47,736 nucleotides of DNA from the IMG/VR virus record IMGVR_UViG_2778261460_000004, one strand, 5' to 3'. The notes under the pieces were generated by a model that was given only the letters and a program-made list of their open reading frames with translations, did not search any database and was not told the DNA's origin. Within the stretch, counting starts at the first letter, position 1. Each line of letters begins with the position of its first letter. Below, in pieces: positions 1,659 through 15,667 of the stretch. This stretch comes from a virus (lineage: Duplodnaviria > Heunggongvirae > Uroviricota > Caudoviricetes). The position numbers and the translations under genes were made by a program.

Positions 1659-4139
1659 TTAAAAATCAGCCTGACTCGGGATCAGTTTTTGTATCGTAGC
1701 TGTAACGTATTTTGCCTGGTGACGGGCGTCATCCAGTGCATTGTGGCGCACGCCTTCGAATGGAATAACGGTTCTGGCATCAAAGTCGATTGTTTTTCCC
1801 AGCTCAACGATTGTGCGTACATCGCGATCGTTGTAGTAGCGCCACGGGCAGGGGATGTCCAGACGTTCGTATGAGGTGCGCAAAATTGCGTTATCGAAAG
1901 TCGCACCATTACCCCATACCTGAACGAATTTTTCATCTGAGTATTCGTTGATGAACTCCCGAAACTGCGAAAGGGCATCCTTCAGTTTTACCTGGTCTGT
2001 TAAAATGGCAGCTCTGGCTTCACTGGACTGCTTCAGCCACCATTCGATGGTTCCACCGTCAGGAACAGCCCCTGTATTCATTGCGTCAGTCAGACTGATA
2101 ACGATATAAAATACTGGCCCGATTTCCCCTGTTTGTGGGTCGAAGAAAACCGCACCAATAACCACGATGGGCGCATTGGTGTTGGTTCCCATTGTTTCAA
2201 GGTCGATCATCAGGTGGTACCACACTCTGCTGGTGGATGTGATAACGTGATGACCGTTCACCGCAATTAAGGAATCTGCCGTCTCGCCAGTTTCATTATC
2301 GCTGGCGTGGTCCTGAGCGCTGCCAGCATTCTCCTTGTGTGGATGTTCAGCGCCTTCCATTTCCTCCGGATCATTTTCCTGAACTTCAACCTGATTCTCT
2401 TCATCGAATGTTTCCTGGTATGTTGCGTCGCCCATCACCGCACCACAATCAGGGCAGTTGCCGCCACCGAGCTGACCGCAGGCGGTGCAGACTTTTTCCG
2501 CTTCCTGTTGCGCTACCGGTTCGGATTGTTTCGTTTCTGGTTCGTTTTGTAACGCATTTGGGCTGTTTTGTTCCGCTTTTGGGTCGTTCTGTTCCGATTC
2601 TTGCTGGTTCTGGTTCACAGAATCGCGGGTTTCAATCCCCTTCACCCATTTCGGATCATTCGGGTCGCTAATCCCTGCAACAAATTCTCCGCGAGAGGCA
2701 GCAAGCAACTTATCGGCGTCAGGCTGGCTGATATTGGCTGCCTGCATAATTTTGTTTACTTCGTCAGCGGTAACTTTTACCGGCTCCGGTTGTGCGGTCG
2801 TGTCAGATGCACCAGTATTTTGTTGTGAACCTGAGTATGTGCCGTTTTTGCGGGCAAAATATTCTTCTTTCGTGATTTCAGTAGCCCCTGCAGCCAGCGC
2901 CTTATTCAGACCAGAAAGTTTGTTTGCACGACCATATTTTTCGCCATCCTTATCGGTGAAAAGGAAGTAGAACGGCCCCTCACGCTCTACAGATGGTTCA
3001 GTTTCCAGCGTGCTTTCATTTTTTTGGGTATCAGATACTTCAGTTTCCACTGCATCAGTTTGTGCTGCTGACGGCTGGAGAATATCAGTAGTGTTCTGGT
3101 CTGTTTCTTCATCCTCAAACACGCCCTTTGTCGCCAGGTATTCAGTGATGTATTTGTTCAGTGCCACGGGATCTTTGTGAATGTCGATCGGACGCTCACG
3201 GACAAGGCCAAAAATAGTCTGACGGTCGTAGCGAACGGCATCGGGTTGTTTGCGCATTGATGCGGAAATGCGCTTCCAGTCTTCGCGATCTTTGTCGATA
3301 ACTTCATTTTTTGCCCAACGATGGATGCTGCCGTCAATGTTTCCGGCATTAATATCGCCAGGCCACAGAGCGTAGGCCAGTTCTTCATCCAGCGTTTTCC
3401 ATGTCTGCTTGTATTCGCGACGAATGGCGGTAGTGGCGGGGTTGATTTTTCCTGCTGAGTTTTCAGTGTGCTGCCGGTTGACTCTGGCGCGGGCAAGATC
3501 AACAACAGACGTGTATTTCCCGGTTTCTTTGCGTTCGGCTTCGCGACGTTTTTTCCAGGTGCGTAATTCTGTCTGGATCTCAGGCCATTTTGCGCCCGGC
3601 TTACATTTATGTTTAACCCACCCGATGGCGAACAGCTTTAGTTCTGAATACATGACGTTAACTTCAGGCATTTTCATCAGTGCCTCAACGATATGCCCGT
3701 CGAATGTTGCCATGTCCTCCTGCAACAATTCCTGTGCACTAATCACCATATCAACGGTGATGTTTTCACATGTACCGAACTTAACCAGGACCGCGTTCTG
3801 TACTTCAAGGGACAGCTTGTCAAAATTGACGTTCATCGGATCGGATTCTGGTTCGACCGGAACAAAGGAAGCGCCTTCCTCATCCCAGCGGTTTTCCAGC
3901 ATATATTCGGTATCCCAGGAGTCGATGGCAGGGCGGGGCATGCCGGGTTTATCCTCGCAGACAAGAAATTTATAAGCGCAGTCCTGAGCAGCCGGATATT
4001 GCTCCAGGAATTGCCAGGTAAATTTGGCACGGGCGCGGCGTTCGTCGCCGGCTTCAATGGCAGTGGCTACAGCGACTGCACCTTCTTCCTTTATTGCCTG
4101 TTCGTCCGGAATGGCGGCGCAAATAAAGACTTTACTCAT
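1659..4139 (-). CDS. Large prophage exonuclease with C-terminal DnaQ-like DEDDh 3'-5' exonuclease domain (exodeoxyribonuclease VIII-like / YdfE-like)
   Basis: 826 aa. C-terminal motifs LMIDLETMG (Exo I, D-x-E), [12 protein letters not shown] (Exo II) and [13 protein letters not shown] (Exo III, H-x4-D). Central Cys cluster [16 protein letters not shown] (zinc-ribbon-like) and Gln/Glu-rich low-complexity linker. No RecT/Bet partner seen. Confidence 0.7.
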
Positions 4140-4219
4140 TTTGTTTTAACCTCATTACAGATTTAAGGGTGAACAAATCCCTGCCATTGCTGGCATATAA
4201 AAATGAAACCGGATATTAA

Positions 4220-4423
4220 TTACGGTGCTGTTTTAAGTCCTGCCGGGATTTCGTTATTGTCCATGTGAATAACTTTATCGACCGGATAGCAGTTACCGGG
4301 AATTTTTTGTTCCGCTGCGGCAGCCATGCATTCTTTCATTGAGTCATGTATGCCAATAACAAGATCGACTGGTTCGCCTGTATTAAGAAAAACTGTCAGA
4401 ACGAGTGCAAATGCTGTATTCAT
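4220..4423 (-). CDS. ydfD: YdfD-like small protein (reported lysis protein of Qin)
   Basis: 67-aa product from internal Met (MNTAFALVLTVFLNTGEPVDL...KIPGNCYPVDKVIH...), hydrophobic N-terminus; start overlaps dicB stop (ATGA); synteny dicF-dicB-ydfD as in Qin. Identity from memory, moderate. Confidence 0.55.
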   Translation of the reverse strand: MNTAFALVLTVFLNTGEPVDLVIGIHDSMKECMAAAAEQKIPGNCYPVDKVIHMDNNEIPAGLKTAP

Positions 4424-4608
4424 TGCCAGCGTCCTTTTTGCATCAGGCGTAAACGGGCCAGCATTGAAAGAATGCATATTTTATTTAATAACTCCCGTTC
4501 GTGTTTTCTCTTATTAATGGCATCTTCAGTAAATGCAGGGTTACTGATTCTGACACCAATTTCAAAACAACCTTCAGACGTATTGACGTTTGGTAATAAC
4601 GTTTCCAT
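4420..4608 (-). CDS. dicB: Cell division inhibitor DicB (MinC-activating)
   Basis: 62-aa product METLLPNVNTSEGCFEIGVRISNPAFTEDAINKRKHERELLNKICILSMLARLRLMQKGRWQ, near-identical to recalled K-12 DicB; directly downstream of the DicF sequence. Confidence 0.85.
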   Translation of the reverse strand: METLLPNVNTSEGCFEIGVRISNPAFTEDAINKRKHERELLNKICILSMLARLRLMQKGRWQ

Positions 4609-4777
4609 TATCGCGTCCTCAACAATGAATTTTGTGATGCGGTGCCTGGTGCCTCCAGGTGACGTTAACCAGTTAACAATTAACGCCGGATGCAGAGAAT
4701 CCACCCATAACACTGTTTTTGGTTTTAACTGTTCCGCGTGCGCTTAGCCGCATTCACCGCATCACAAAATTCACTTT

Positions 4778-5921: not shown

Positions 5922-6103
5922 GCTGACCTCATTTCCCCTTAACGCCGGGGTGGCGGAACAAAAACCTGCTGCATAGTTAAAGTTGAACCCTGCCGTCATG
6001 TTCTTACGCCTCGGGCTGGCTACTTAACCCCTGACCACTGCCTGGTAACTCGAAGTATTGCCCTGCATTCTGTGGGGCGGGGTGGGTTGGTATGAAAAGA
6101 AGG

Positions 6104-6141
6104 ATACCCATAGGTATTTAAAAAGTAAATACCCATGGGTA
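6104..6141. promoter_or_regulatory. Putative left operator sites (OL-like) between repressor gene and ydfA
   Basis: Two palindromes ATACCCATAGGTAT (6104-6117) and TACCCATGGGTA (6130-6141) flanked by A/T runs; share ATACCC-N3/4-GGT core with the sites in the divergent promoter region. Confidence 0.45.
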
Positions 6142-6183
6142 ACTTTTTGCGGTGTCTTAACTGGTGACTAGTTGTTTGGTGAG

Positions 6184-6603
6184 CTATGATGCGTTTTGTG
6201 CTTTCTTTTTACGGATTTCTTCGTAGATCATATTGTAATACTGTTTTTTCTCTTCAAGAGTTTTTAATAAGTTATCCGCTTCACTTTCTGGCAGTTCGTC
6301 TAAGAGATCTAAAAAAATACGTTGTCGTGGCGTTAGAACCCTTGTTTCATAACTGGAGGCTGTGTTCGTTGATGATGAAACGATACCATCCATCCATCCC
6401 CGGGGTAACCCAAAGGACTCTTCGATAATCTCCACCATATCATCAGCGATCCGTTTTTTTCCCTTTTTCCCCTCTGGGTACAACATTCTTGATACATAAG
6501 AAGGCTCGCGCCCGATCTTTCTGGCCACGTTAACCGCTTTACCATCGCATTTCTCATCACGAATTTTGATGAGTTGCTGTCGTCTAAATTCATATTTGTC
6601 CAT
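6184..6603 (-). CDS. Prophage repressor, DicA/RacR-family HTH protein (cI analogue)
   Basis: 139 aa; N-terminal HTH-like segment (GKAVNVARKIGREPSYVSRML); C-terminal LPESEADNLL motif reminiscent of DicA; divergent from Cro-like gene across an operator-rich intergenic region. Confidence 0.7.
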   Translation of the reverse strand: MDKYEFRRQQLIKIRDEKCDGKAVNVARKIGREPSYVSRMLYPEGKKGKKRIADDMVEIIEESFGLPRGWMDGIVSSSTNTASSYETRVLTPRQRIFLDLLDELPESEADNLLKTLEEKKQYYNMIYEEIRKKKAQNAS

Positions 6604-6631
6604 AGGTAAATAATAGATGCGATTACTGCAA

Positions 6632-6678
6632 GGTAAACAACCTGCGGGTATTGACTTTTGTTTACCTGCGGGTATTCT
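6632..6678. promoter_or_regulatory. Divergent promoter/operator region of the immunity switch (OR-like)
   Basis: 13-mer ACCTGCGGGTATT repeated at 6640-6652 and 6664-6676; inverted repeat GGTAAACA/TGTTTACC (6632-6639, 6658-6665); TTGACT hexamer at 6651-6656. Confidence 0.5.
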
Positions 6679-6703
6679 TTGCTGTGTTTACTAAGGAGTA
6701 GCT

Positions 6704-6985
6704 ATGGAAGAATTAAGAATATTTCTCAATTCTCTTTCGTCAGATGAACAGCGTATGTTTGCATGCGAGTGTGGTACCAGCATCGGTTATCTAAGAAAGG
6801 CATTGAGTAAAGGTCAAGTGTTAGGGGCATCGTTATGTGTCCTTATTGAGCGAGCCAGTAATGGTGAAGTTACACGTCAGCAACTAAGGCCTTTTGATTG
6901 GATGAATATTTGGCCCGAGCTGGAAGATACCAAAATGTTAACACAACCACTTTCTAGGAGCTTGATTCATGAAAATCAAGCATGA
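6704..6985 (+). CDS. Cro/YdaS-like HTH regulator
   Basis: 93 aa, first gene rightward of the repressor; SD AAGGAG 6 nt upstream of ATG; resembles Rac YdaS (from memory). Confidence 0.6.
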   Translation: MEELRIFLNSLSSDEQRMFACECGTSIGYLRKALSKGQVLGASLCVLIERASNGEVTRQQLRPFDWMNIWPELEDTKMLTQPLSRSLIHENQA

Positions 6986-7394
6986 ACACATCCGCATGGC
7001 GATGAATGCCTGGGCGCATCCGGACGGTGAAAAAGTTCCGGCAGCTGAAATAACCAGGGCTTATTTTGAACTGGGTATGACGTTCCCAGAACTGTATGAC
7101 GACAGCCATCCGGAAGCCCTGGCTCGCAATACCCAGAAAATTTTCCGCTGGGTAGAGAAAGACACCCCTGATGCAGTTGAAAAAATTCAGGCGTTGTTAC
7201 CAGCTATCGAAAAAGCAATGCCACCTCTGCTGGTGGCCCGAATGCGCAGCCATAGCTCAGCCTATTTTCGGGAACTAGTGGAGACGCGGGAACGACTGGT
7301 GAGAGACGCTGATGATTTTGTCGCAGTGGCGATCGCTGGTTTCAACCAGATGAATCGTGGTGGCCCTGCAGGAAATATTGTGGCTGTGCATTGA
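6969..7394 (+). CDS. YdaT-like (CII-like) protein
   Basis: 141 aa starting MKIKHEHIRMAMNAW..., overlapping Cro-like gene end; matches recalled Rac YdaT. Confidence 0.6.
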   Translation: MKIKHEHIRMAMNAWAHPDGEKVPAAEITRAYFELGMTFPELYDDSHPEALARNTQKIFRWVEKDTPDAVEKIQALLPAIEKAMPPLLVARMRSHSSAYFRELVETRERLVRDADDFVAVAIAGFNQMNRGGPAGNIVAVH

Positions 7395-7465
7395 CTCGCA
7401 ATATTCATACCGGATCACTTCCGGCAATTTGTGAGTAAAAAGATTCGGTATCAAAAGAGGTGAGT

Positions 7466-8536
7466 ATGGCTAACGCCTGGCTCAGATTATGGCATGACAT
7501 GCCAAATGACCCTAAGTGGCGAACAATTGCCAGGGTGTCAGGGCAGCCAATTGCAACAGTGATGGCAGTGTATATCCACCTCCTGGTGAGCGCGTCACGA
7601 AATGTCACGCGAGGTCACATTGATGTCACGACAGAAGATTTGGCAAGTGCGCTCGACGTGACAGAAGAGGTAATTGATTCAATTTTGCAGACGATGCAGG
7701 GGCGGGTACTTGATGGTGATTTAATCACTGGATGGGAAAAACGCCAGGTGCTTAAAGAGGACAACGGCAATATTTCGCAAACCGCAAAATCTCCTGCAGA
7801 GCGCAAGAGGGCGCAGCGAGAGAGGGAAAGAAAGCGGGAACAAAATGGCGATTGTCACGGCGCGTCACGAAATGTCACGCACATGTCACGACGAGTCACG
7901 ACAGATAAAGATACAGATAAAGATACAGATCAAGAAGATCAAAACACTATGGTCCATGGCGTAAAAAACGCCACGAACCAGGCAGGGGATGTTCAGACCG
8001 TCAATCTTGGTCAGCCAGCAGGCACGACACCGGAAGCCGATTCAGCGTATGCGCTGAAAGCCGATTCGGGCGCTGTGCAGCAGGTGATGACCGCAAGGGC
8101 GGAGCAATCACACCAACTGCAGCAGTCTGAAGCCGATTCCGCCATTCAGCGGGAAGCCGATCGGGTAGTCCCGGAAAACACCGGGCAGTCTGTGGGACGA
8201 GTGGATTATCCGGATGTGTTCGAACAGGTCTGGCGGGAGTACCCGTTGCGTGCTGGGGCAAACCCGAAGAAATCCGCTTTCAGTGCCTGGAAGGCCAGAT
8301 TACGCGAGGGGGTGCCACCAGAGGCCATGCTGGATGGCGTGAGGCGTTACGCAAGATACTTGGCGGCTACCGGGAAAACGGGAACGGAATTTGTTCAGCG
8401 AGCGACGACGTTTTTTGGACCGGACCGGAATTTTGAGAACCCCTGGTTGCTCCCGGTAAGCGGCACGAACAACCAGCGTTGTGTGAATCATATTTCTGAA
8501 CCGGATAACGAAATTCCGCCGGGCTTCAGGGGGTAA
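7466..8536 (+). CDS. Replication initiation protein (O-like / YdaU-like) containing the origin iterons
   Basis: About 356 aa from ATG at 7466 (track ORF from GTG 7460); SD AAAGAGGTGAG; two GTCACG iteron clusters lie inside the coding sequence and encode repeated peptides SASRNVTRGHIDVTT / GASRNVTHMSRRVTT. Confidence 0.6.
   Translation: MANAWLRLWHDMPNDPKWRTIARVSGQPIATVMAVYIHLLVSASRNVTRGHIDVTTEDLASALDVTEEVIDSILQTMQGRVLDGDLITGWEKRQVLKEDNGNISQTAKSPAERKRAQRERERKREQNGDCHGASRNVTHMSRRVTTDKDTDKDTDQEDQNTMVHGVKNATNQAGDVQTVNLGQPAGTTPEADSAYALKADSGAVQQVMTARAEQSHQLQQSEADSAIQREADRVVPENTGQSVGRVDYPDVFEQVWREYPLRAGANPKKSAFSAWKARLREGVPPEAMLDGVRRYARYLAATGKTGTEFVQRATTFFGPDRNFENPWLLPVSGTNNQRCVNHISEPDNEIPPGFRG
7588..7637. 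repeat. Iteron cluster 1 (GTCACG-type repeats), candidate ori element
   Basis: gagcgcgtcacgaaatgtcacgcgaggtcacattgatgtcacgacag: four or five (C/T)GTCAC(G/A) copies. Confidence 0.5.
7851..7945. repeat. Iteron cluster 2 plus GATAAAGATACA tandem repeat, candidate ori element
   Basis: attgtcacggcgcgtcacgaaatgtcacgcacatgtcacgacgagtcacgacag followed by gataaagatacagataaagatacagatcaagaagatcaaaac; 21-mer GCGCGTCACGAAATGTCACGC shared with cluster 1. Confidence 0.5.
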
Positions 8537-8576
8537 GTGTTAATTTCTGGTCATGAGGTAATTTTCAGGAGGGCTT

Positions 8577-8999
8577 GTGGCAAAAGTTTTTACACAAGAA
8601 GAGCGGGAAAAAATTAAAGGGCAGGTTCTTGAACTCGTACGCCAGAGTGGGCGCGAGACGTTACGACAACTGGAAGCTAAAACTGGGGCAACAAGATATC
8701 TGATGAGCGTTCTGGCCAGAGAGCTGGTTGCCAGTGGCGATGTATACAATTCTGGCTACGGGTTATTCCCGTCTGAACAGGCTCGGAAAGACTGGCAAAA
8801 TGCCCGCAAAAAATTATCGAGGGCAAAGCTGAAGAAACCGGTTGTGGTTGATCCGGACCTTATCTGGTCATTACCTGACGGAGAAATACGTCGCTACGAC
8901 AGTCGCCTAAACATAATCTGTCGCGAGTGCCGGAAGAGCGAAGTTATGCAGCGCATATTGTCGTTTTATCAGGGGGATGTTCGGTATTTATTGAAGTGA
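8577..8999 (+). CDS. Hypothetical 140-aa protein downstream of replication initiator
   Basis: GTG/ATG start after SD-like GGAGGG; C-terminal CRECRK motif; no helicase-loader (P/DnaC) features recognised. Confidence 0.4.
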   Translation: MAKVFTQEEREKIKGQVLELVRQSGRETLRQLEAKTGATRYLMSVLARELVASGDVYNSGYGLFPSEQARKDWQNARKKLSRAKLKKPVVVDPDLIWSLPDGEIRRYDSRLNIICRECRKSEVMQRILSFYQGDVRYLLK

Positions 9000-9072
9000 C
9001 GAGATTAAAGTGCATTAGTTCAGATGCAAATTGACATTTTGTGGCACAGGGTAGAGCTAGCGTGGTTGTCCG

Positions 9073-9092
9073 CTTTGTGCCAAGAGCAGACG
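9073..9092. repeat. Direct repeat copy 1 flanking transporter/DUF2254 module
   Basis: CTTTGTGCCAAGAGCAGACG; near-identical 20-mer at 12744-12763. Confidence 0.5.
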
Positions 9093-9333
9093 CTGGTAAT
9101 TCGTGCCTAATATACTTCACTTAACTTATATCCCAGCTTTGATACAGATCATACAAATTAAATGCCCCAGTAATTGGCAGGCTGAGTAACTTAAAACTCC
9201 TTAGAATATAGGATGATTTGTATCGGCACTCATTCCACCATGCATTCCGATTAATCCCGCATAGCCAGTTGAACTTTGCTACTCTGTGAGAGGTAGTACC
9301 TTCTATCCAGTGCGGATTTAATTAATGGAATAA

Positions 9334-11337
9334 ATGATTATGAGTGAAAATGATACAACCCCAAAGAAGTCTACAAGCCAGATTAACAAAGCGGTATTCT
9401 TTACATCTGCTTTGCTAATTTTCCTTCTTGTCGCCTTTGCCGCCGTATTCCCGGATGTCGCCGACAAAAATTTTAAACTACTTCAGCAACAAATCTTCAC
9501 GAATGCCAGCTGGTTCTACATACTTGCTGTGGCCCTGATTTTACTGAGCGTCACGTTCCTTGGACTCTCACGTTACGGTGATATAAAGCTGGGCCCAGAC
9601 CATGCGCAGCCTGATTTCAGCTACCACTCCTGGTTCGCGATGCTTTTTTCGGCAGGGATGGGGATCGGCCTGATGTTCTTTGGCGTTGCCGAACCTGTGA
9701 TGCATTATCTTTCGCCACCTGTCGGCACTCCAGAGACCGTTGCGGCAGCGAAGGAAGCCATGCGCCTGACGTTCTTCCACTGGGGTCTGCACGCATGGGC
9801 AATTTATGCCATCGTGGCGCTGATTCTGGCCTTTTTCAGTTACCGTCACGGTCTGCCTTTAACGCTGCGTTCTGCGCTCTATCCCATTATCGGCGATCGC
9901 ATTTACGGGCCTATAGGCCACGCGGTTGATATCTTCGCCGTGATAGGCACTGTCTTTGGCGTTGCAACATCGCTGGGTTACGGTGTATTGCAGGTGAATG
10001 CCGGTTTGAACCATCTTTTCGGCGTGCCCATCAATGAAACGGTACAGGTCATTTTGATCGTGGTCATCACGGGGTTAGCGACGATTTCGGTGGTGTCCGG
10101 CCTGGACAAGGGAATACGCATCCTGTCTGAGCTTAATCTGGGCCTGGCGGTGTTGCTCCTGGCGCTGGTCTTGTGCCTGGGTCCCACTGTGCTTCTGCTG
10201 AAGTCATTTGTGGAAAATACGGGTGGTTATCTGTCGGAACTGGTGAGTAAAACGTTCAACCTTTACGCGTATGAACCCAAGTCGAGCAACTGGCTGGGGG
10301 GCTGGACATTATTATACTGGGGATGGTGGCTTTCATGGTCGCCGTTTGTAGGTATGTTCATTGCACGCGTTTCCCGCGGCAGGACAATTCGTGAGTTCGT
10401 GACTGGCGTGTTGTTTGTTCCCGCCGGCTTTACGCTCATGTGGATGACGGTGTTTGGAAACAGCGCCATCTATCTCATCATGAACCAGGGCGCCACTGAC
10501 CTCGCCAATACCGTTCAGCAGGATGTTGCGCTTGCCCTGTTTAATTTCCTGGAGCATTTCCCGTTCTCTTCCGTGCTGTCATTCATTGCAATGGCGATGG
10601 TCATCGTCTTCTTTGTAACGTCTGCTGATTCGGGGGCAATGGTTGTGGATACTCTGGCATCAGGTGGGGTGGCAAACACGCCCGTCTGGCAGCGAATTTT
10701 CTGGGCATCGCTCATGGGCGTTGTTGCTATTGCCCTGCTGATCGCAGGGGGGCTGAGTGCGTTGCAAACCGTAACGATAGCGAGTGCATTGCCCTTCTCA
10801 GTTATCTTATTAATATCCATATACGGACTGTTAAAAGCCCTGCGTCGGGATTTGACCAAGCGTGAAAGCCTTAGCATGGCGACTATTGCTCCTACGGCTG
10901 CACGTAACCCAATTCCCTGGCAGAGAAGGTTACGCAATATCGCGTATTTGCCGAAGCGCTCTCTTGTGAAACGTTTTATGGACGACATTATCCAACCCGC
11001 CATGACGCTGGTTCAGGAGGAACTTAACAAGCAGGGAACGATAAGCCACATCAGTGACGCCGCCGAGGATCGTATTCGCCTTGAAGTCGATTTGGGCAAC
11101 GAGCTGAATTATATATATGAAGTGAGGCTTCGCGGGTATAACTCACCGACCTTCGCGCTCGCTGCGCTGGATAATGATGAGCAGCAGAGTGAACAACATC
11201 GATATTATCGCGCTGAAGTCTATCTCAAAGAGGGCGGCCAAAATTATGATGTAATGGGCTGGAATCAGGAACAGCTGATTAATGACATACTGGACCAGTA
11301 CGAAAAACACCTGCACTTCCTGCATCTGGTTCGTTAA
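9334..11337 (+). CDS. BCCT-family transporter (BetT-like choline/glycine betaine transporter)
   Basis: 667 aa; multiple TM segments; BCCT signature WTLLYWGWWLSWSPFVGMFIARVSRGRTIREF; long cytoplasmic C-terminal extension as in BetT. Confidence 0.85.
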   Translation: MIMSENDTTPKKSTSQINKAVFFTSALLIFLLVAFAAVFPDVADKNFKLLQQQIFTNASWFYILAVALILLSVTFLGLSRYGDIKLGPDHAQPDFSYHSWFAMLFSAGMGIGLMFFGVAEPVMHYLSPPVGTPETVAAAKEAMRLTFFHWGLHAWAIYAIVALILAFFSYRHGLPLTLRSALYPIIGDRIYGPIGHAVDIFAVIGTVFGVATSLGYGVLQVNAGLNHLFGVPINETVQVILIVVITGLATISVVSGLDKGIRILSELNLGLAVLLLALVLCLGPTVLLLKSFVENTGGYLSELVSKTFNLYAYEPKSSNWLGGWTLLYWGWWLSWSPFVGMFIARVSRGRTIREFVTGVLFVPAGFTLMWMTVFGNSAIYLIMNQGATDLANTVQQDVALALFNFLEHFPFSSVLSFIAMAMVIVFFVTSADSGAMVVDTLASGGVANTPVWQRIFWASLMGVVAIALLIAGGLSALQTVTIASALPFSVILLISIYGLLKALRRDLTKRESLSMATIAPTAARNPIPWQRRLRNIAYLPKRSLVKRFMDDIIQPAMTLVQEELNKQGTISHISDAAEDRIRLEVDLGNELNYIYEVRLRGYNSPTFALAALDNDEQQSEQHRYYRAEVYLKEGGQNYDVMGWNQEQLINDILDQYEKHLHFLHLVR

Positions 11338-11385
11338 CAGCAACATGCCGCCACAGAGGCGGCATTTATTTATCCCGGCTGCAAT

Positions 11386-12678
11386 ATGAGGGAATGCAGA
11401 ATGATTTCACGCTGGAAATGGATGCTGAAGCAGACATTTAAAAAACTATGGTTCAGGGCAACGTTATTCGCAATTGTCGCAATAATAACGGCCCTTTTAT
11501 CAATTCTTTTTAAATCAATGATACCTGAGTCGGTTTCCGTGAAGGTTGGTGCGGAAGCAGTCGATAACATTCTGAACATACTGGCATCGAGTATGCTGGC
11601 CGTGACCACATTTTCGCTGAGCATCATGGTCACAGCCTACGGTTCAGCCACTACTAATGTGACTCCCAGAGCTACTCGTTTAGTTGTTGAAGACGTCACC
11701 ACACAAAATGTACTGGCCACCTTCATCGGTTCTTTTCTCTTCAGTCTGGTAGGGATTATTGCCCTCAATATGGGAGCTTATGGAGAAAGGGGGAGAGTCA
11801 TTTTATTCATTGTAACACTGGTTGTCATTGCCTTAATCCTCATCACATTGCTTCGCTGGATACAGCATTTGACCTCTCTGGGGAGGGTTGGTGAGACAAC
11901 GGCAAAAGTAGAACAGGCGGCCATCGAAACATTTATTGCGAGAGCAAGAAATCCCTGTCTCGGCGGATATCCATGGCTTGAGAACAATGAACAGCCGAAA
12001 GGAACGGTTGCAGTTTATCCGAAAAAGATTGGCTATGTTGAATATGTTGATATGGTGAAACTCAGCAAGCTGCTGACCAATGATCCCCGTCATGTATACC
12101 TCGTGGCGCAGCCGGGCAGTTTCATACATCCGTCCACGCCAGTTTTGTACCTGAGTCAGGGCCAGGAGTCATCAATCAGCACCGATTTACTTGAGACGAT
12201 TATTGTCTCGGATGTACGTTCATTTGCTCAGGACCCCCGATTTTGTCTTAGCGTCATGGCCGAAATAGCCTGCCGAGCCCTTTCCCCCGCAGTGAACGAT
12301 CCTGGAACCGCCATTGATGTCATTGGCAGAGGTGTACGTATACTTTCCGCTTACGCGCAGAATAAATCTGATGAAATAGAAGTGAAATATCCTTCTGTAC
12401 ATGTTGCACCACTTCAGAATAACGATCTACTTGAAGACTTTTTCTCACCTGTTGCGCGCGATGGTGCCAGTATGAGGGAAATTCAGATAAGGGTACTTAA
12501 AGGACTGTCGATGCTGAGTAAGGGTTGGCCTGGAATTTTTGCTGAAGCCGCACAAACCCTAGCATTTGAAACATTAGAGCATGCTACTCGTGCTGACCAT
12601 ATAGATTCTGACAGATATCTAATAAAATCAATTTATTATAATTTATTTAGTGGCGAAGATTCTAATAAAAAACCATAG
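11386..12678 (+). CDS. Membrane protein with N-terminal TM helices and large soluble domain (DUF2254-like)
   Basis: 430 aa; about 4-5 hydrophobic helices in first 170 aa; about 50 bp downstream of the BCCT gene on same strand. Family assignment from memory, moderate. Confidence 0.55.
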   Translation: MRECRMISRWKWMLKQTFKKLWFRATLFAIVAIITALLSILFKSMIPESVSVKVGAEAVDNILNILASSMLAVTTFSLSIMVTAYGSATTNVTPRATRLVVEDVTTQNVLATFIGSFLFSLVGIIALNMGAYGERGRVILFIVTLVVIALILITLLRWIQHLTSLGRVGETTAKVEQAAIETFIARARNPCLGGYPWLENNEQPKGTVAVYPKKIGYVEYVDMVKLSKLLTNDPRHVYLVAQPGSFIHPSTPVLYLSQGQESSISTDLLETIIVSDVRSFAQDPRFCLSVMAEIACRALSPAVNDPGTAIDVIGRGVRILSAYAQNKSDEIEVKYPSVHVAPLQNNDLLEDFFSPVARDGASMREIQIRVLKGLSMLSKGWPGIFAEAAQTLAFETLEHATRADHIDSDRYLIKSIYYNLFSGEDSNKKP

Positions 12679-12743
12679 TTGCGGAGCAAGCGATACGGTT
12701 GTTGGCAAGTCAAGGGCAAAGCATTCGCGTGAGAGTGGGCGTC

Positions 12744-12763
12744 TGCTTTGTGCCAAAAGCTGA
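12744..12763. repeat. Direct repeat copy 2 flanking transporter/DUF2254 module
   Basis: CTTTGTGCCAAAAGCTGACG (18/20 identical to 9073-9092). Confidence 0.5.
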
Positions 12764-12850
12764 CGTTTGTGGTTCTTGAAACATATCTTATAATGCGGCC
12801 AGTTTTTGTTGACCACTGCACTCCTTAATTATGTATGTAGAAGATAAATA

Positions 12851-13189
12851 ATGAAAAGACTGCTGATATTGATCCTTCTGGGTTTTTCCTGTGTATCACA
12901 AGCCAAGTCAGTAATGCGTTGTGAGGGCGACAAAGCGGTTGTCTTCGACAAAGAACGGGCAACTATTGATTATGAGGGGCGTGTTTTTGAGAATGCATAC
13001 CAGAGAACGTTGAGTGGGATGGTCATAATCGCTGGCACTGACGATCTAGGCTATGAAGGTGAATTGTTGTTTTCGAAAGTCAAAGGCGTTGGCGCATGGA
13101 GCTTCAATATCAGCGAAAGCGAGGAAATGTCCCCTCCAGAAGCTAAGTCACGGAAAACGATTTTATCTATAGATTGCACTCCGCAGTAG
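12851..13189 (+). CDS. Small secreted/periplasmic protein (signal peptide)
   Basis: 112 aa; N-terminal MKRLLILILLGFSCVSQA looks like a Sec signal peptide; two Cys in mature part; AT-rich gene. Confidence 0.5.
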   Translation: MKRLLILILLGFSCVSQAKSVMRCEGDKAVVFDKERATIDYEGRVFENAYQRTLSGMVIIAGTDDLGYEGELLFSKVKGVGAWSFNISESEEMSPPEAKSRKTILSIDCTPQ

Positions 13190-13473
13190 GATGGAAGAAG
13201 CGGGTGTTACTATTGAAAAACCACATGTTCGCTCCTCGCTCAAAGCTGCCTGTCATGCTTGCTTAAAAAACAGGCTTAACGTAGGATATTTTCCGTTTTC
13301 CAAGCGGACCCCATAAGTGGCGCATTAGGCACAAGTGGTTGAGGGGATGGGAAGCCATAACGGAAAATGATTTTGACAGTGACAACGCAGCTTTCAGTTA
13401 TGCATATGACCACTTTTTAAAAAGTGATTTCTCAAAAAATAGAAATAAATAACAAATTTTCTAATGGTGTCAA

Positions 13474-14532
13474 ATGGAAAGTATCGCGCTATACAACTGG
13501 GCTACAAGTGTTTTGTCTTCTATTACAGAAGATTTGAATGAACATTACTATAAAGAAATTAATGGCAGTCTCGCTTTACAATTTGAAACTACAGATATTG
13601 TGAACGCTAGAGCTTTAGTTTACTCAGAGCGTGATGAACCACCAAGGCATGCTATATCAATCACATATAAATTAATCCGATCATTATATGATGATGCTGC
13701 TGCTTTTGTAGATTATGTTCACTCTGGTAAAGATGATGAAGTTTATGATATGTGGTTTAATGGGCAAACCAACTTTAGCACTTTAAGAAATGAGTGGGAT
13801 AAAACTAATTTCACTAAAAACATTTTTCTAGCAGGTTTGACATGGGTTTTTTTTCATGAGTTAGGACACTTAACTCAGGGCCATTTATTTATAAGGAACA
13901 GGTATAGTTCCGAAATTAATGTAATGTCTGAAATTCACTTAAATAATTTATCATCAGACAATAACGATGCATCTGCCATTTGGCACGCAACGGAACTTGC
14001 AGCCGATTATTTTTCCACATACATGTGTGTAATAGAAATTGTTCGACAACTTGCCATTAATGAAGATTGCGAATTGGCAATTTGCTTTTTGACATGTGGT
14101 ATATCATTAATGTTACATCGTTTTCAAGGCGAAAAACTTTATGAGGTTCAAACAGAACCAGTTGGTACACATCCTAGGCCATTCGTAAGGCTTGAAATGA
14201 TCGTGCCTTTAATTTTTGAAATACTTTCTATTCCAAACACAGATCAACGTCGTAGTTATGTGCTTGCAGGTGGTGAATCGGCCAACAGGGTTGGACTTTT
14301 CTGGATAAGAAAGACTGGAATAATGGAGGGTATTCCTGAACATTATCTTATCGAAGGTACATTGAACCGGCCTGGAGTTGTTGAGTATTTGAGGCATATC
14401 ATTTTTATTTGGGATAGCATTTCATCTGAAATCTCTGAGATGTTCACTTTTGGCACAAAAAAAATGCTTCTTAACTTCACGAATGTACTTCGGACTACAC
14501 CGGATTTGAATGATGATACACAGGAAAAATAA
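13474..14532 (+). CDS. Putative cytoplasmic zinc metallopeptidase-like protein (HExxH motif)
   Basis: 352 aa; motif VFFHELGHLTQGH at residues 126-138 (HExxH plus downstream His); no signal peptide; AT-rich, atypical composition for the host. Confidence 0.5.
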   Translation: MESIALYNWATSVLSSITEDLNEHYYKEINGSLALQFETTDIVNARALVYSERDEPPRHAISITYKLIRSLYDDAAAFVDYVHSGKDDEVYDMWFNGQTNFSTLRNEWDKTNFTKNIFLAGLTWVFFHELGHLTQGHLFIRNRYSSEINVMSEIHLNNLSSDNNDASAIWHATELAADYFSTYMCVIEIVRQLAINEDCELAICFLTCGISLMLHRFQGEKLYEVQTEPVGTHPRPFVRLEMIVPLIFEILSIPNTDQRRSYVLAGGESANRVGLFWIRKTGIMEGIPEHYLIEGTLNRPGVVEYLRHIIFIWDSISSEISEMFTFGTKKMLLNFTNVLRTTPDLNDDTQEK

Positions 14533-15044
14533 TGCTGATCAGTGTTAATTAACAATTCGCATAATATAGGGGGGCTGTACCGGAACCGCCAGAAATTTCT
14601 GGCGCAGTGAATTAGTCGAATTTTGAAGCATGTTTGGCATGTGCTGACGTGTACGTTTATGGTGCCGTGAGTGAGAATTTATCCGTACCAGCTATGTGAG
14701 ACGCTGCGGTCAGTGATTTTTCGTTCCAAACGGCCATTTCTTTACTGTCCGGTTGACGGCGGTCTTACGTACAGGCAGACAACCGCAAACATTATGCGTC
14801 ACGGAAATTTCTGCGGTTCTGGCGTACAACCCCAAATTAACGTCCGCTCATCGCTCAAAGCGGACTAGAAGGTTAGCTTGCGTCGGACTTGGCGTATTTA
14901 AAGAAGTACTGGTGGTGACTGGTTGTTGTGTTCCATTTCTACAGAACAAAATCACAGAAACTATACCCAATAGTTGTATCTCATCAATGATGAGACAGCC
15001 TCATATTTATCAGGACTGGTGTACGTCCAATACAGGAGGTTGTC

Positions 15045-15134
15045 GTGCTGGTTCTCAAATGTGCGCTGGCTATTGCAGCTGTAATGGCAATTTATTGTCT
15101 TGCTGTTGTTCTTATGGATCGCCTTTCTGATTGA
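15045..15134 (+). CDS. Small hydrophobic peptide (29 aa), type-I-toxin-like
   Basis: GTG start 5 nt after AGGAGG; product MLVLKCALAIAAVMAIYCLAVVLMDRLSD (single predicted TM helix); below the ORF-track size cutoff. Confidence 0.3.
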   Translation: MLVLKCALAIAAVMAIYCLAVVLMDRLSD

Positions 15135-15345
15135 TTTTATATTGGCGAGGTAACGGGAGTTAAGTAGAATGGCTGCGGGTGCTTGAGGCTATCTGTCTCA
15201 GGCATGAACACCAAAGGCAGATAGAGAAAAGCCCCAGTTAACATTACGCGTCCTGCAAGACGCTTAACATTAATCTGAGGCTCAATCTATGAACGGCAAA
15301 TCTAGGTTAGCCTCTTACGTGCCGAAAGGCAAGGAGAAGCAGGCT

Positions 15346-15501
15346 ATGAAGCAGCAAAAGGCGATGTTAATCGCCCTGATCGTCATCTGTTTAACCGTCA
15401 TAGTGACGGCACTGGTAACGAGGAAAGACCTCTGCGAGGTACGAATCCGAACCGGCCAGACGGAGGTCGCTGTCTTCACAGCTTACGAACCTGAGGAGTA
15501 A
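15346..15501 (+). CDS. hokD: Hok-family type I toxin HokD (RelF)
   Basis: 51-aa product MKQQKAMLIALIVICLTVIVTALVTRKDLCEVRIRTGQTEVAVFTAYEPEE matches recalled HokD; in-frame upstream extension (from 15289) may correspond to a mok-like frame; antisense Sok-like RNA expected upstream but not delimited. Confidence 0.85.
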   Translation: MKQQKAMLIALIVICLTVIVTALVTRKDLCEVRIRTGQTEVAVFTAYEPEE

Positions 15502-15667
15502 GAGACCAGGCGGGGGAGAATCCCTCGCCACCTCTGATGTGTCAGGCATCCTCAACGCACCCGCACTTAACCCGCTTCGGCGGGTTTTGTTTTTTCCTAG
15601 CATTCTGGTTTACAATTCGCACGCCAGCCTGAACAACTGGCACCTGCTGCGCCAGCAGAGACAACCG

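What the first reader, a model, noticed from the sequence alone, without database searches (positions are those of the whole stretch)
7588..7945. Replication origin embedded in the initiator gene: two GTCACG iteron clusters and an AT-rich tandem repeat
Two clusters share the 21-mer GCGCGTCACGAAATGTCACGC and contain 4-5 iterons each; the second is followed by the GATAAAGATACA tandem repeat. All of this is inside the O-like/YdaU-like ORF, mirroring lambda ori inside gene O. It suggests a functional theta-replication origin and an intact, inducible replication module.
Basis: partly seen in the sequence, partly recalled or inferred. Interest (0 to 1): 0.35.

Follow-up and report, generated by a model that had tools for sequence, protein, structure and literature searches.

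The report
Phage replication origin inside initiator gene
Inside the replication-initiator gene of an E. coli lambda-like prophage lie two arrays of short GTCACG repeats followed by an easily melted AT-rich stretch, and comparison with about 40 distant relatives shows that the DNA itself is under selection, so this is almost certainly the phage's replication origin: a familiar design in a family that has not been studied experimentally.

Summary
Nine of the window's 36 GTCACG hexamers lie in 7594-7900. They form two arrays with 10/10/11-bp spacing, and the second abuts a 12-bp tandem repeat. The repeats act at the DNA level:
- They fall in all three codon phases.
- In 24 homologues averaging 65% nucleotide identity, from hosts of 34-69% GC, synonymous sites inside the hexamers are nearly frozen (0.95 vs 0.53, p=4e-8).
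- More distant homologues keep the same two-array + AT-rich layout with a different core (GTAACG or CGAACGC), and both arrays always switch together.
- The 36 nt after the last repeat are about 71% AT and 77% purine whatever the host GC.

The host gene encodes a winged-helix domain, a basic helix, a disordered linker and a DnaT-like C-terminal domain. It is neither a lambda O nor a YdaU homologue. Only the N-terminal domain travels with the repeats. Phage Tritos, which is viable, carries an identical origin region and no helicase-loader gene beside the initiator.

The best reading is a lambda-ori/SPP1-oriL-type theta origin: iterons, unwinding element, and possibly a hairpin. Binding and origin activity were not tested. 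I found no description of it in the papers searched, and I class it as a new member of a known kind.

The parts
7466..8536 (+). Initiator gene (356 aa). PGAP calls it 'hypothetical protein'; other annotators call it 'phage replisome organizer', 'DnaT-like ssDNA-binding domain protein' or 'primosomal protein I'.
   Evidence: ORF listing; RefSeq annotation at the same coordinates; full-length match to phrog_3729 'replication initiation protein', E=2.7e-256; source names.
7466..7750 (+). Codes for the N-terminal winged helix-turn-helix domain (aa 1-95).
7590..7632 (+). Iteron array 1: GTCACG at 7594, 7604 and 7625, and GTCACA at 7614. Spacing is 10/10/11 bp. It encodes the end of helix 3 and the loop before the HTH (aa 43-55, ASRNVTRGHIDVT).
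   Evidence: The same ORF offsets (129/139/149/160) recur in about 25 homologues. Synonymous sites are frozen.
7657..7662 (-). Inverted iteron copy (CGTGAC on the + strand, codons D-V-T), 33 bp after array 1.
   Evidence: It sits at offset 193(-) in most GTCAC-class loci. The Val codon is GTG in 21/21 but GTT in the GTAACG-class locus L029.
7793..7855 (+). Codes for the conserved basic helix (aa 110-130, AERKRAQRERERKREQ). It is a candidate specificity determinant.
   Evidence: Predicted helix 110-130. R113, K114, R115, Q117, R118 and R120 are invariant or nearly so. Sequence differences between iteron classes concentrate here. The role is inferred.
7853..7900 (+). Iteron array 2: five GTCACG at 7854, 7864, 7874, 7885 and 7895. 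It encodes the start of the disordered linker (CHGASRNVTHMSRRVT).
   Evidence: It is conserved at ORF offsets of about 389-430, with 3-5 copies, in homologues. Allelic point changes fall in the spacers, not the cores.
7901..7945 (+). AT-rich (71%), purine-rich (73% on the top strand) tract, including the tandem repeat ACAGATAAAGAT x2.9. It is the putative DNA unwinding element and encodes TDKDTDKDTDQEDQ.
   Evidence: TRF. It is the least stable 40-mer in the ORF. The equivalent 36 nt in 40 loci average 71% AT and 77% purine irrespective of host AT content of 31-67%, Wilcoxon p=3.6e-8. Copy number is polymorphic.
7950..7980 (.). Imperfect palindrome (13-nt arms, 5-nt loop) immediately right of the AT-rich tract. 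It is a possible third origin element.
   Evidence: Inverted repeat I19; hairpin in the ssDNA fold; flagged as terminator-like on the minus strand. Across the family, hairpins downstream of the AT tract are only modestly enriched (stem 5.83 vs 5.08, p=2.6e-4). Support is weak.
8072..8536 (+). Codes for the helical C-terminal domain (aa 203-356). The family's C-terminal region matches the DnaT C-domain, and the window protein ends in the DnaT-like tail VNHISEPDNEIPPGFRG.
   Evidence: Family profile against PDB: DnaT 6aep_A E=8.4e-9, 9zbt_D E=6.4e-8. NCBIfam DnaT aligned to aa 333-356, below cut-off. PF17948 on close relatives. The same C-domain is joined to a different N-domain in Stx phage 75/02.

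Best explanation
The segment 7590-7980 is the replication origin of this Qin-type lambdoid prophage, written into the coding sequence of its own initiator.

The initiator has four parts: a winged-helix N-domain, a basic helix, a disordered linker and a DnaT-like C-domain. The proposed mechanism runs as follows.
1. The initiator binds the short GTCACG iterons. Their 10-11 bp spacing puts successive sites on one face of the helix, in two arrays 260 bp apart.
2. Oligomerisation on array 2, probably reinforced by looping to array 1, strains the adjoining AT- and purine-rich tract (7901-7945) until it melts.
3. The DnaT-like C-domain then binds the exposed single strand and brings in host DnaB-DnaC, because the module encodes no helicase loader of its own. 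Theta replication follows.

Shown here:
- The repeats are real and phased, and they are constrained as DNA.
- The iterons-then-AT-tract architecture is conserved.
- The core co-varies between the two arrays.
- The N-domain is the only gene segment that always accompanies the repeats.

Inferred:
- Who binds the repeats.
- The looping, the melting and the helicase-loading route.
For: **Clustering and phasing.** The hexamers cluster far beyond chance and are in helical phase.

**Not a protein repeat.** Codon phases are 3,1,2,1 and 2,3,1,3,1.

**Selection on the DNA.** In 24 GTCAC-class homologues (mean 65% nt identity), conserved residues inside hexamers use one codon with mean major-codon frequency 0.946. 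Examples are Val GTC 24/24, Thr ACG 24/24 and Ser TCA 23/24. Outside the hexamers the frequency is 0.531; Mann-Whitney p=3.7e-8.

**Conserved positions.** The same ORF offsets, 129/139/149/160(+), 193(-) and about 389/399/409, recur in E. coli, Pseudomonas, Aeromonas, Bordetella, Acidovorax, Chromobacterium and others.

**Co-variation.**
- Of 45 loci, 26 use GTCAC, 6 GTAAC and 10 CGAACGC.
- The commonest 5-mer of array 1 recurs 2-6 times in array 2, against a background of 0.03-0.6.

**Linkage.** Only the N-domain is shared by all 41 iteron-bearing loci. The repressor, cro-like, YdaT-like, DUF977 and window-type C-domain genes are each present in 5 or fewer.

**Unwinding element.** The 36 nt after the last iteron are 71% AT and 77% purine in 40 loci, even in hosts of 69% GC. 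In the window this is the least stable stretch of the ORF.

**Protein.** The N-domain is a winged helix of DnaD-NTD/replisome-organizer type. The C-domain is DnaT-like.

**Viability.** Phage Tritos has an identical origin region, and no loader gene is annotated beside its initiator. It is induced and plaques on K-12.

**Precedents.** SPP1 oriL sits within gene 38 as AB boxes plus a DUE (PMC5737612). Ori-lambda sits within gene O (PMC6022878 abstract).
Against: - There is no direct evidence of binding, melting or autonomous replication for any member of this family. I found no paper on it.
- The AT tract is only about 70% AT and about 45 bp long.
- The wHTH recognition helix is acidic. DnaD-type N-domains are often oligomerisation modules rather than DNA readers, so the reading head is uncertain.
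- Three low-GC homologues (L031, L034, L046) keep the AT repeat but show no clear iteron arrays.
- Homologues are phylogenetically related, so counts of loci are not independent events.
- The role of array 1 is open: origin enhancer, autoregulation or copy control.
Confidence: 0.8

Rival explanations
1. The arrays are genuine initiator-binding sites, but they act mainly as control elements rather than as the site where replication starts. They could repress the gene by blocking transcription, or control copy number by 'handcuffing'. The true origin would then lie elsewhere. Alternatively, only array 2 plus the AT tract is the origin and array 1 is purely regulatory.
For: - The two arrays are 260 bp apart and flank the DNA-binding-domain coding region. 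This recalls P1 incC/incA and P4 ori/crr (my knowledge).
- Array 1 has no adjacent AT tract.
- L039 and L055 show only array 2.
Against: - Array 2 is always immediately followed by an AT- and purine-rich tract kept against host GC. That is the signature of an unwinding element, not of an operator.
- No other GTCAC cluster exists in the 47.7-kb window.
- No DnaA box with one mismatch or fewer lies in 7300-8700.
- No other GTCAC cluster or repeat array that could mark a second origin was seen in the window, but I did not search for other kinds of origin.
Confidence: 0.1
2. The repeats are sites for some other factor, such as a host protein, a neighbouring phage regulator, or a recombination or packaging function. 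They would not be sites for the initiator.
For: - No binding data exist.
- The recognition helix of the wHTH is acidic.
Against: - Iteron classes differ between elements living in the same host genus. Pseudomonas loci L012, L027, L030 and phi1 use GTCAC, whereas L035 uses CGAACGC.
- Neighbouring genes are not conserved with the repeats: 5 or fewer of 41 loci share any of them.
- The terminase and cos region lies far away in the window.
Confidence: 0.05
3. The repeats are only a by-product of a repeated or low-complexity protein segment (SRNVT ... SRNVT, DKDKDK) and have no function as DNA.
For: - The 21-mer duplication is in frame, 270 nt apart, and encodes ASRNVT twice.
- S-R-x-V-T is invariant at the protein level.
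Against: - The hexamers occupy all three codon phases.
- Synonymous positions are frozen only inside the hexamers.
- Array 2 and the AT tract encode a predicted disordered linker with pLDDT below 50. Its amino-acid sequence and length otherwise vary.
- AT-rich codons (GAT, AAA) are kept in hosts of 60-69% GC.
- The core changes class in both arrays together.
Confidence: 0.03

Closest known systems
Bacteriophage lambda ori within gene O (O/P system)
   Same: - The origin is embedded in the initiator's own coding sequence. It overlaps the end of the N-terminal DNA-binding region and the flexible linker.
- The order is iterons, then an AT-rich tract with purine/pyrimidine strand bias, then a palindrome.
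- The gene occupies the same map position, after the cII-like gene in the rightward early operon of a lambdoid phage. The lambda anatomy is from my own knowledge and PMC6022878.
   Different: - The initiator is not homologous to O. There is no Phage_rep_O hit.
- The iterons have 6-7-bp cores every 10-11 bp, without internal dyad symmetry. Lambda has four ~19-bp iterons.
- There are two arrays 260 bp apart instead of one.
- There is no P-type helicase loader. The C-domain is DnaT-like.
Bacillus phage SPP1 G38P / oriL and the 'phage replisome organizer' (Pfam PF09681) initiators of Firmicute phages
   Same: - The origin lies within the organizer gene. It consists of repeated boxes bound by the organizer plus an adjacent AT-rich DUE (PMC5737612).
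- The N-domain has a DnaD-NTD-like winged-helix fold. It aligns end to end with PF09681.
- NCBI names relatives 'phage replisome organizer'.
   Different: - The PF09681 score is below the gathering threshold (16 vs 23.3 bits).
- SPP1 uses a second, distant binding region (oriR) and its own loader and helicase (G39P/G40P).
- Here the second array is 260 bp away, and no loader or helicase is encoded next to the gene.
E. coli DnaT (primosomal protein I) of the PriA-PriB-DnaT restart primosome
   Same: - The C-terminal region of the family matches the DnaT C-domain (E=8e-9).
- The window protein ends with the same tail as DnaT, SEPDxxIPPGFRG.
   Different: - There is no DnaT N-terminal domain.
- The C-domain is fused to an origin-binding-type winged helix.
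- The function at a duplex origin, rather than at stalled forks, is inferred only.
Satellite phage P4 ori/crr and iteron plasmids (P1 incC/incA, pPS10/R6K type)
   Same: - Several short direct repeats lie in two separated clusters that are presumably bound by one initiator.
- Helical phasing and an adjacent AT-rich region are shared (my knowledge of P4 type I iterons TGTTCACC, and of P1).
   Different: - The initiator families are unrelated (P4 alpha primase-helicase; Rep_3 WH1-WH2).
- Plasmid iterons are 17-22 bp long at about 22-bp spacing.
- Here both clusters lie inside the initiator ORF.

Membership tests
Iteron-type theta origin (general) | An array of several direct repeats of one motif, in helical register. 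| tested here: met
   There are 4+1 and 5 copies at 10/10/11(/10) bp spacing. None of 300 shuffles reach 5 copies per 60 bp.
Iteron-type theta origin (general) | An AT-rich DNA unwinding element adjacent to the repeats. | tested here: met
   7901-7945 is 71% AT and the least stable 40-mer of the ORF. It is conserved at 71% AT in 40 loci regardless of host GC.
Iteron-type theta origin (general) | The repeats are constrained as DNA and co-evolve with the cognate initiator. | tested here: met
   Synonymous-site test p=3.7e-8. Three iteron classes switch in both arrays together. Only the N-domain is linked to the repeats.
Iteron-type theta origin (general) | The initiator binds the repeats, and the fragment supports autonomous replication in cis. 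| not testable with these tools
   This needs EMSA or footprinting and a plasmid replication assay. The only indirect support is the viability of phage Tritos, which has an identical origin region.
Lambda O / ori-lambda | The initiator belongs to the O family (Pfam Phage_rep_O). | tested here: not met
   No such hit even at E<=10 on the N-terminal half.
Lambda O / ori-lambda | The origin lies inside the initiator gene as iterons, then an AT-rich tract, then a palindrome. | tested here: met
   7853-7900, 7901-7945 and 7950-7980. The palindrome is only weakly supported across the family.
Lambda O / ori-lambda | A cognate P-type helicase loader is encoded immediately downstream. | tested here: not met
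   The next gene is DUF977/Ren-like. The same holds in Tritos and Evi.
Phage replisome organizer (PF09681, SPP1 G38P type) | An N-terminal domain that matches PF09681 above threshold. | tested here: inconclusive
DnaT-like ssDNA-binding domain proteins (PF17948 / DnaT C-domain) | A C-terminal three-helix DnaT domain and tail. | tested here: met
   The family profile hits DnaT chains at E=8.4e-9 and 6.4e-8. The window protein alone aligns to the DnaT tail, aa 333-356, below the NCBIfam cut-off. It gave no Pfam hit of its own. PF17948 is recorded on relatives that are 85% identical in the N-terminal 159 residues.
Rac YdaU (DUF1376) | Presence of the DUF1376 domain. | tested here: not met
   There is no DUF1376 hit. 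Only the flanking genes resemble Rac ydaS/ydaT.

The most novel reading that the evidence does not exclude
The module would be a one-gene replicon of a kind not yet described.
- Its initiator carries a bipartite origin: two phased arrays of 6-7-bp iterons that loop about 260 bp of its own coding DNA.
- Specificity would be read by a short basic helix that has diversified into at least three mutually exclusive iteron classes (GTCACG, GTAACG, CGAACGC).
- Host DnaB would be loaded by mimicking DnaT through the C-terminal domain and tail, bypassing any phage P/DnaC-type loader.
- Array 1 is overprinted on the loop next to the initiator's HTH, so site and protein would change through the same nucleotides.
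Probability: 0.3. Interest if true: 0.55.

Novelty: new member of a known kind. Interest (0 to 1): 0.4.

Why it matters
- **Prevalence.** The origin region (431 bp) is present in 2036 of 5426 complete E. coli genomes. PGAP labels the gene 'hypothetical protein' in most hits listed, including all 20 top ones, and some phage records leave it unannotated.
- **Experimental handle.** Recognising it gives a defined cis element and initiator for a very common family of E. coli, Pseudomonas and Aeromonas temperate phages.
- **Specificity groups.** The family has natural specificity classes that should behave as incompatibility or immunity groups for replication.
- **Annotation caveat.** The invariant 'CHxxSRxVT...DKDKD' protein motif is the translation of DNA sites, not a protein feature.
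- **Helicase loading.** The DnaT-like C-domain in a loader-less module raises a testable question about how a phage origin recruits the host helicase.

Tried and rejected
**Searches that gave nothing**
- Literature searches for the motif, for iterons in replisome-organizer or lambdoid prophages, for DnaT plus replisome organizer, for phage D3 and for 'initiator-solo' found no description of this family.
- The search was swamped by 'macrophage' hits. The Pf-5 paper concerns an unrelated ICE oriV.
- No DnaA box with one mismatch or fewer lies in 7300-8700.
- No Rfam family matches 6000-9400.
- Promoter- and terminator-like sites in 6000-9400 are at or below shuffle expectation. The only one inside the element is the 7950-7980 hairpin.

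**Leads examined and set aside**
- A small GTCAC group at about 11602-11700 in the cargo gene is within chance. Three per 60 bp occurs in a third of shuffles, and the copies are unphased.
- Plasmid search: the N-domain occurs on a few large E. coli plasmids or mis-filed chromosomes, and on two 50.9-kb circular P. aeruginosa 'plasmids' that are phage genomes. This is suggestive of episomal circles but is no proof of origin function.
- Residues specific to each iteron class point to the basic helix. The comparison is confounded by phylogeny, so I keep it only as a lead.

**Correction to an assumption**
- I first assumed the window was colinear with strain AR_452. It is not: the window is 89% identical left of 5156 and differs at 12765-14841. 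I therefore used that annotation only where coordinates and sequence agree.
Full report
**1. The observation**

- The 21-mer GCGCGTCACGAAATGTCACGC occurs at 7590-7610 and again at 7860-7880.
- Array 1 has GTCACG at 7594, 7604 and 7625, the variant GTCACA at 7614, and one inverted copy at 7657-7662.
- Array 2 has five exact copies at 7854, 7864, 7874, 7885 and 7895.
- Start-to-start spacings are 10/10/11 and 10/10/11/10 bp, about one helical turn.
- Tandem Repeats Finder reports ACAGATAAAGAT x2.9 at 7901-7935.
- An imperfect palindrome with 13-nt arms follows at 7950-7980.

The clustering is not chance.
- The window has 36 GTCACG against 22.0 +/- 4.5 in shuffles.
- Nine of them lie in 307 bp, where about 0.14 are expected. 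My Poisson estimate is about 5e-14.
- Five GTCAC within 60 bp was never reached in 300 shuffles. Nothing elsewhere in the window exceeds three.

**2. Context**

The window is an apparently complete Qin-type lambdoid prophage next to rspB. Its gene order runs as follows:
- integrase, excisionase, a large 3'-5' exonuclease protein, ydfD, dicB, ydfABC;
- a repressor (6184-6603, minus strand), a Cro-like gene (6704-6985) and a YdaT/cII-like gene (6969-7394);
- the ORF 7466-8536, then a DUF977/Ren-like gene (8577-8999);
- a cargo block, hokD, RusA and Q;
- lysis genes, terminase, and head and tail genes.

The window is colinear with E. coli AR_452 only in parts. The 1.2-kb replication segment occurs in 2928 of 5426 complete E. 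coli genomes, and the 431-bp repeat region in 2036. PGAP calls the gene 'hypothetical protein' in most of the hits listed, including all 20 top ones.

**3. The protein**
- PHROGs places it full length in phrog_3729, 'replication initiation protein'.
- Pfam finds nothing above threshold. The N-terminal 145 residues align end to end with PF09681 (phage replisome organizer N-domain) at E=0.012. There is no Phage_rep_O or DUF1376 hit.
- AlphaFold2 with 82 homologues predicts four parts:
  - a confident winged helix-turn-helix at aa 1-95;
  - a basic helix at aa 110-130;
  - a disordered linker at aa 133-206;
  - a helical C-domain.
- A profile of the family hits the C-domain of E. coli DnaT at E=8e-9. 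The window protein ends ...VNHISEPDNEIPPGFRG, almost the DnaT tail.

Mapped on this structure:
- array 1 encodes the end of helix 3 and the loop preceding the HTH;
- array 2 and the AT-rich repeat encode the beginning of the disordered linker.

**4. Is it a DNA element or a protein repeat?**

Four independent lines say DNA.

(a) The hexamers fall in codon phases 3,1,2,1 and 2,3,1,3,1. The invariant protein strings 'SRNVTRGH..VT' and 'CH..SR.VT' are simply the translation of GTCACG every 10 bp.

(b) I collected 52 homologous loci, one per species, from genome contigs. I added Pseudomonas phage phi1 and Aeromonas phage pAEv1818.
- In about 25 of them GTCAC sits at identical ORF offsets: 129, 139, 149, 160 (+), 193 (-) and about 389/399/409.
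- The hosts range from 34% to 69% GC.
- In a codon alignment of 24 such sequences (mean 65% nt identity to the window), conserved degenerate residues inside the hexamers use essentially one codon. Examples are Val GTC 24/24, Thr ACG 24/24, Ser TCA 23/24 and Gly GGT 24/24, giving a mean major-codon frequency of 0.946.
- Outside the hexamers the frequency is 0.531. Mann-Whitney p=3.7e-8.

(c) More distant homologues keep the same layout but with another core. The layout is an array at about offset 130, an array at about offset 390, then (GATAAA)n or (CAGATA)n.
- Of 45 loci classified, 26 use GTCAC, 6 use GTAAC(G) and 10 use CGAACGC.
- Within each locus the two arrays use the same core. The commonest 5-mer picked from array 1 alone recurs 2-6 times in array 2, against 0.03-0.6 expected from the flanks.
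- In the GTAACG-class Enterobacter locus, even the inverted copy has followed through a synonymous Val change, GTG to GTT.

(d) The 36 nt after the last iteron average 71% AT and 77% purine on the coding strand in 40 loci.
- This is independent of locus AT content (31-67%).
- The Wilcoxon test against the N-terminal coding region gives p=3.6e-8.
- GAT and AAA codons are retained even in hosts of 60-69% GC.
- In the window this tract is the least stable 40-mer of the ORF.
- Among near-identical E. coli copies, point differences hit the spacers, not the cores. The 12-bp unit varies in copy number.

**5. Who reads the repeats?**
- The iteron class differs between elements of the same host genus. 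Pseudomonas has both GTCAC and CGAACGC, so a host factor is unlikely.
- Of the window's early genes, only the initiator N-domain is present in all 41 iteron-bearing loci. The repressor, Cro-like, YdaT-like and DUF977 genes, and even the window-type C-domain, are each found in 5 or fewer.
- C-domains and downstream partners are modular:
  - a primase-helicase in phi1;
  - a DnaC-like loader in pAEv1818;
  - nothing in the window, Tritos or Evi.
- Stx phage 75/02 has the same C-domain joined to another N-domain, with other repeats (GGGGCTTC) and a (CAGGAA)n linker, followed by a DnaC-like loader.
- The parsimonious reader is therefore the N-terminal part of the initiator.
- Which surface reads the DNA is open. 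The wHTH is nearly identical across iteron classes, whereas the basic helix differs by class: AERKRxQRERE, AERAKxWRExxK and xRVKx[YF]REK. That comparison is phylogenetically confounded, so it is a lead only.

**6. Mechanism proposed**

Shown:
- phased, DNA-constrained iterons;
- an adjacent conserved AT- and purine-rich tract;
- linkage to a wHTH plus basic-helix domain;
- a DnaT-like C-domain;
- no loader gene.

Inferred:
- Initiator molecules line up on one face of the helix on array 2, and probably bridge to array 1, 260 bp (about 25 turns) upstream.
- The strain melts 7901-7945.
- The DnaT-like domain binds the exposed strand and recruits host DnaB-DnaC.
- Replication then proceeds in theta mode.

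The 7950-7980 hairpin may be a third element, as in ori-lambda. Family-wide support for it is modest (stem 5.83 vs 5.08 nt, p=2.6e-4). Array 1 could instead, or also, serve autoregulation or copy control. That is the main rival, at about 0.1.

**7. Functional support from a real phage**

Phage Tritos is prophage 3 of AIEC strain LF82.
- It carries the same gene at 98.4% nt identity.
- Both arrays and the AT tract are identical.
- It has the same gene order with no loader.
- It is spontaneously induced, yields about 2.8e6 genomes/mL and forms plaques on MG1655 hsdR- (PMC9928086).

This shows the module suffices for phage replication in K-12. It does not map the origin.

**8. Comparison with what is known**

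It works like ori-lambda inside gene O, and like SPP1 oriL inside gene 38 (AB boxes plus a DUE bound by the replisome organizer G38P; PMC5737612).
- It is not a member of the O family.
- Membership of PF09681 is sub-threshold.
- The C-domain is a DnaT relative.
- The short 10-11-bp-phased cores and the two separated arrays recall P4 ori/crr more than lambda (my knowledge).
- Among 50,697 phage records only 25 encode this N-domain, and none is a model phage.
- I found no paper describing the repeats. The searchable library is limited, so this is weak negative evidence.

**9. Verdict**
- It is a new, widespread and under-annotated member of a well-known kind of element.
- Interest is moderate at 0.4. 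The design is expected for a lambdoid phage. The co-varying iteron classes, the overprinting on the initiator's own DNA-binding domain, and the DnaT-like, loader-less arrangement give clear experiments.

Noticed in passing
window 8462-8533 (aa 333-356): The initiator ends ...RCVNHISEPDNEIPPGFRG, nearly identical to the extreme C-terminal tail of E. coli DnaT (...RDVNTVSEPDSQIPPGFRG). Unrelated C-domains in the family also keep 'SxPDxxIPxGFxG'. This suggests a shared host docking peptide.
   Followed up: partly
window 8536-9334; L137 (Tritos) 7137-7600; L139 (Evi) 4137-4624: No P-, DnaC- or DnaB-type gene follows the initiator in the window, Tritos or Evi; only a DUF977/Ren-like (LygF) gene does. 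Relatives have a DnaC-like loader (pAEv1818, Stx 75/02) or a primase-helicase (phi1).
   Followed up: partly
L002 2490-3389 (Pseudomonas phage phi1 KT887557); L140 5001-5890 (CP137943.1): The initiator ORF is not annotated in the phi1 GenBank record.
   Followed up: no
L048 3001-3620 (Serratia MAG), L054 3001-3620 (Pantoea sp.): The same N-terminal domain is fused to a different C-terminus ('YVYYV...GISRNPWAR', possibly GIY-YIG/T5orf172-like). These loci have no iteron arrays and no AT-rich repeat, so the domain may have been recruited to another function.
   Followed up: no
L111, L121, L128, L131 (ORF offset ~436-480) vs window 7901-7945; L006 3110-3190: The 12-bp unit ACAGATAAAGAT varies in copy number: 4 of 80 IMG/VR E. 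coli copies have one extra unit. E. albertii has six iterons in array 1 (+21 bp, in frame). Iteron and AT-repeat number evolve by in-frame slippage.
   Followed up: partly
L031, L034, L046 (Ventosimonas/Entomomonas MAGs, ~34% GC): These homologues keep the (GATAAA)n tract, up to 8-9 copies in L046. They show no obvious iteron arrays, at most a single GAACGC next to the AT tract. They may use degenerate sites or a different mode.
   Followed up: no
window 9334-15600: A cargo block (BCCT-family transporter, DUF2254 protein and further genes) sits between the replication module and the hokD/Q region. It is only partly shared with strain AR_452: the window differs at 12765-14841, and its left arm is only 89% identical.
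   Followed up: partly
L004 2080-2105, 2331-2342, 2359-2388 (Shigella phage 75/02 Stx): An initiator with the same DnaT-like C-domain but a different N-domain carries different short repeats (GGGGCTTC x2 direct plus one inverted) and a (CAGGAA/CAAGAA)n linker. This suggests that the N-domain and its origin are exchanged together as one cassette.
   Followed up: partly
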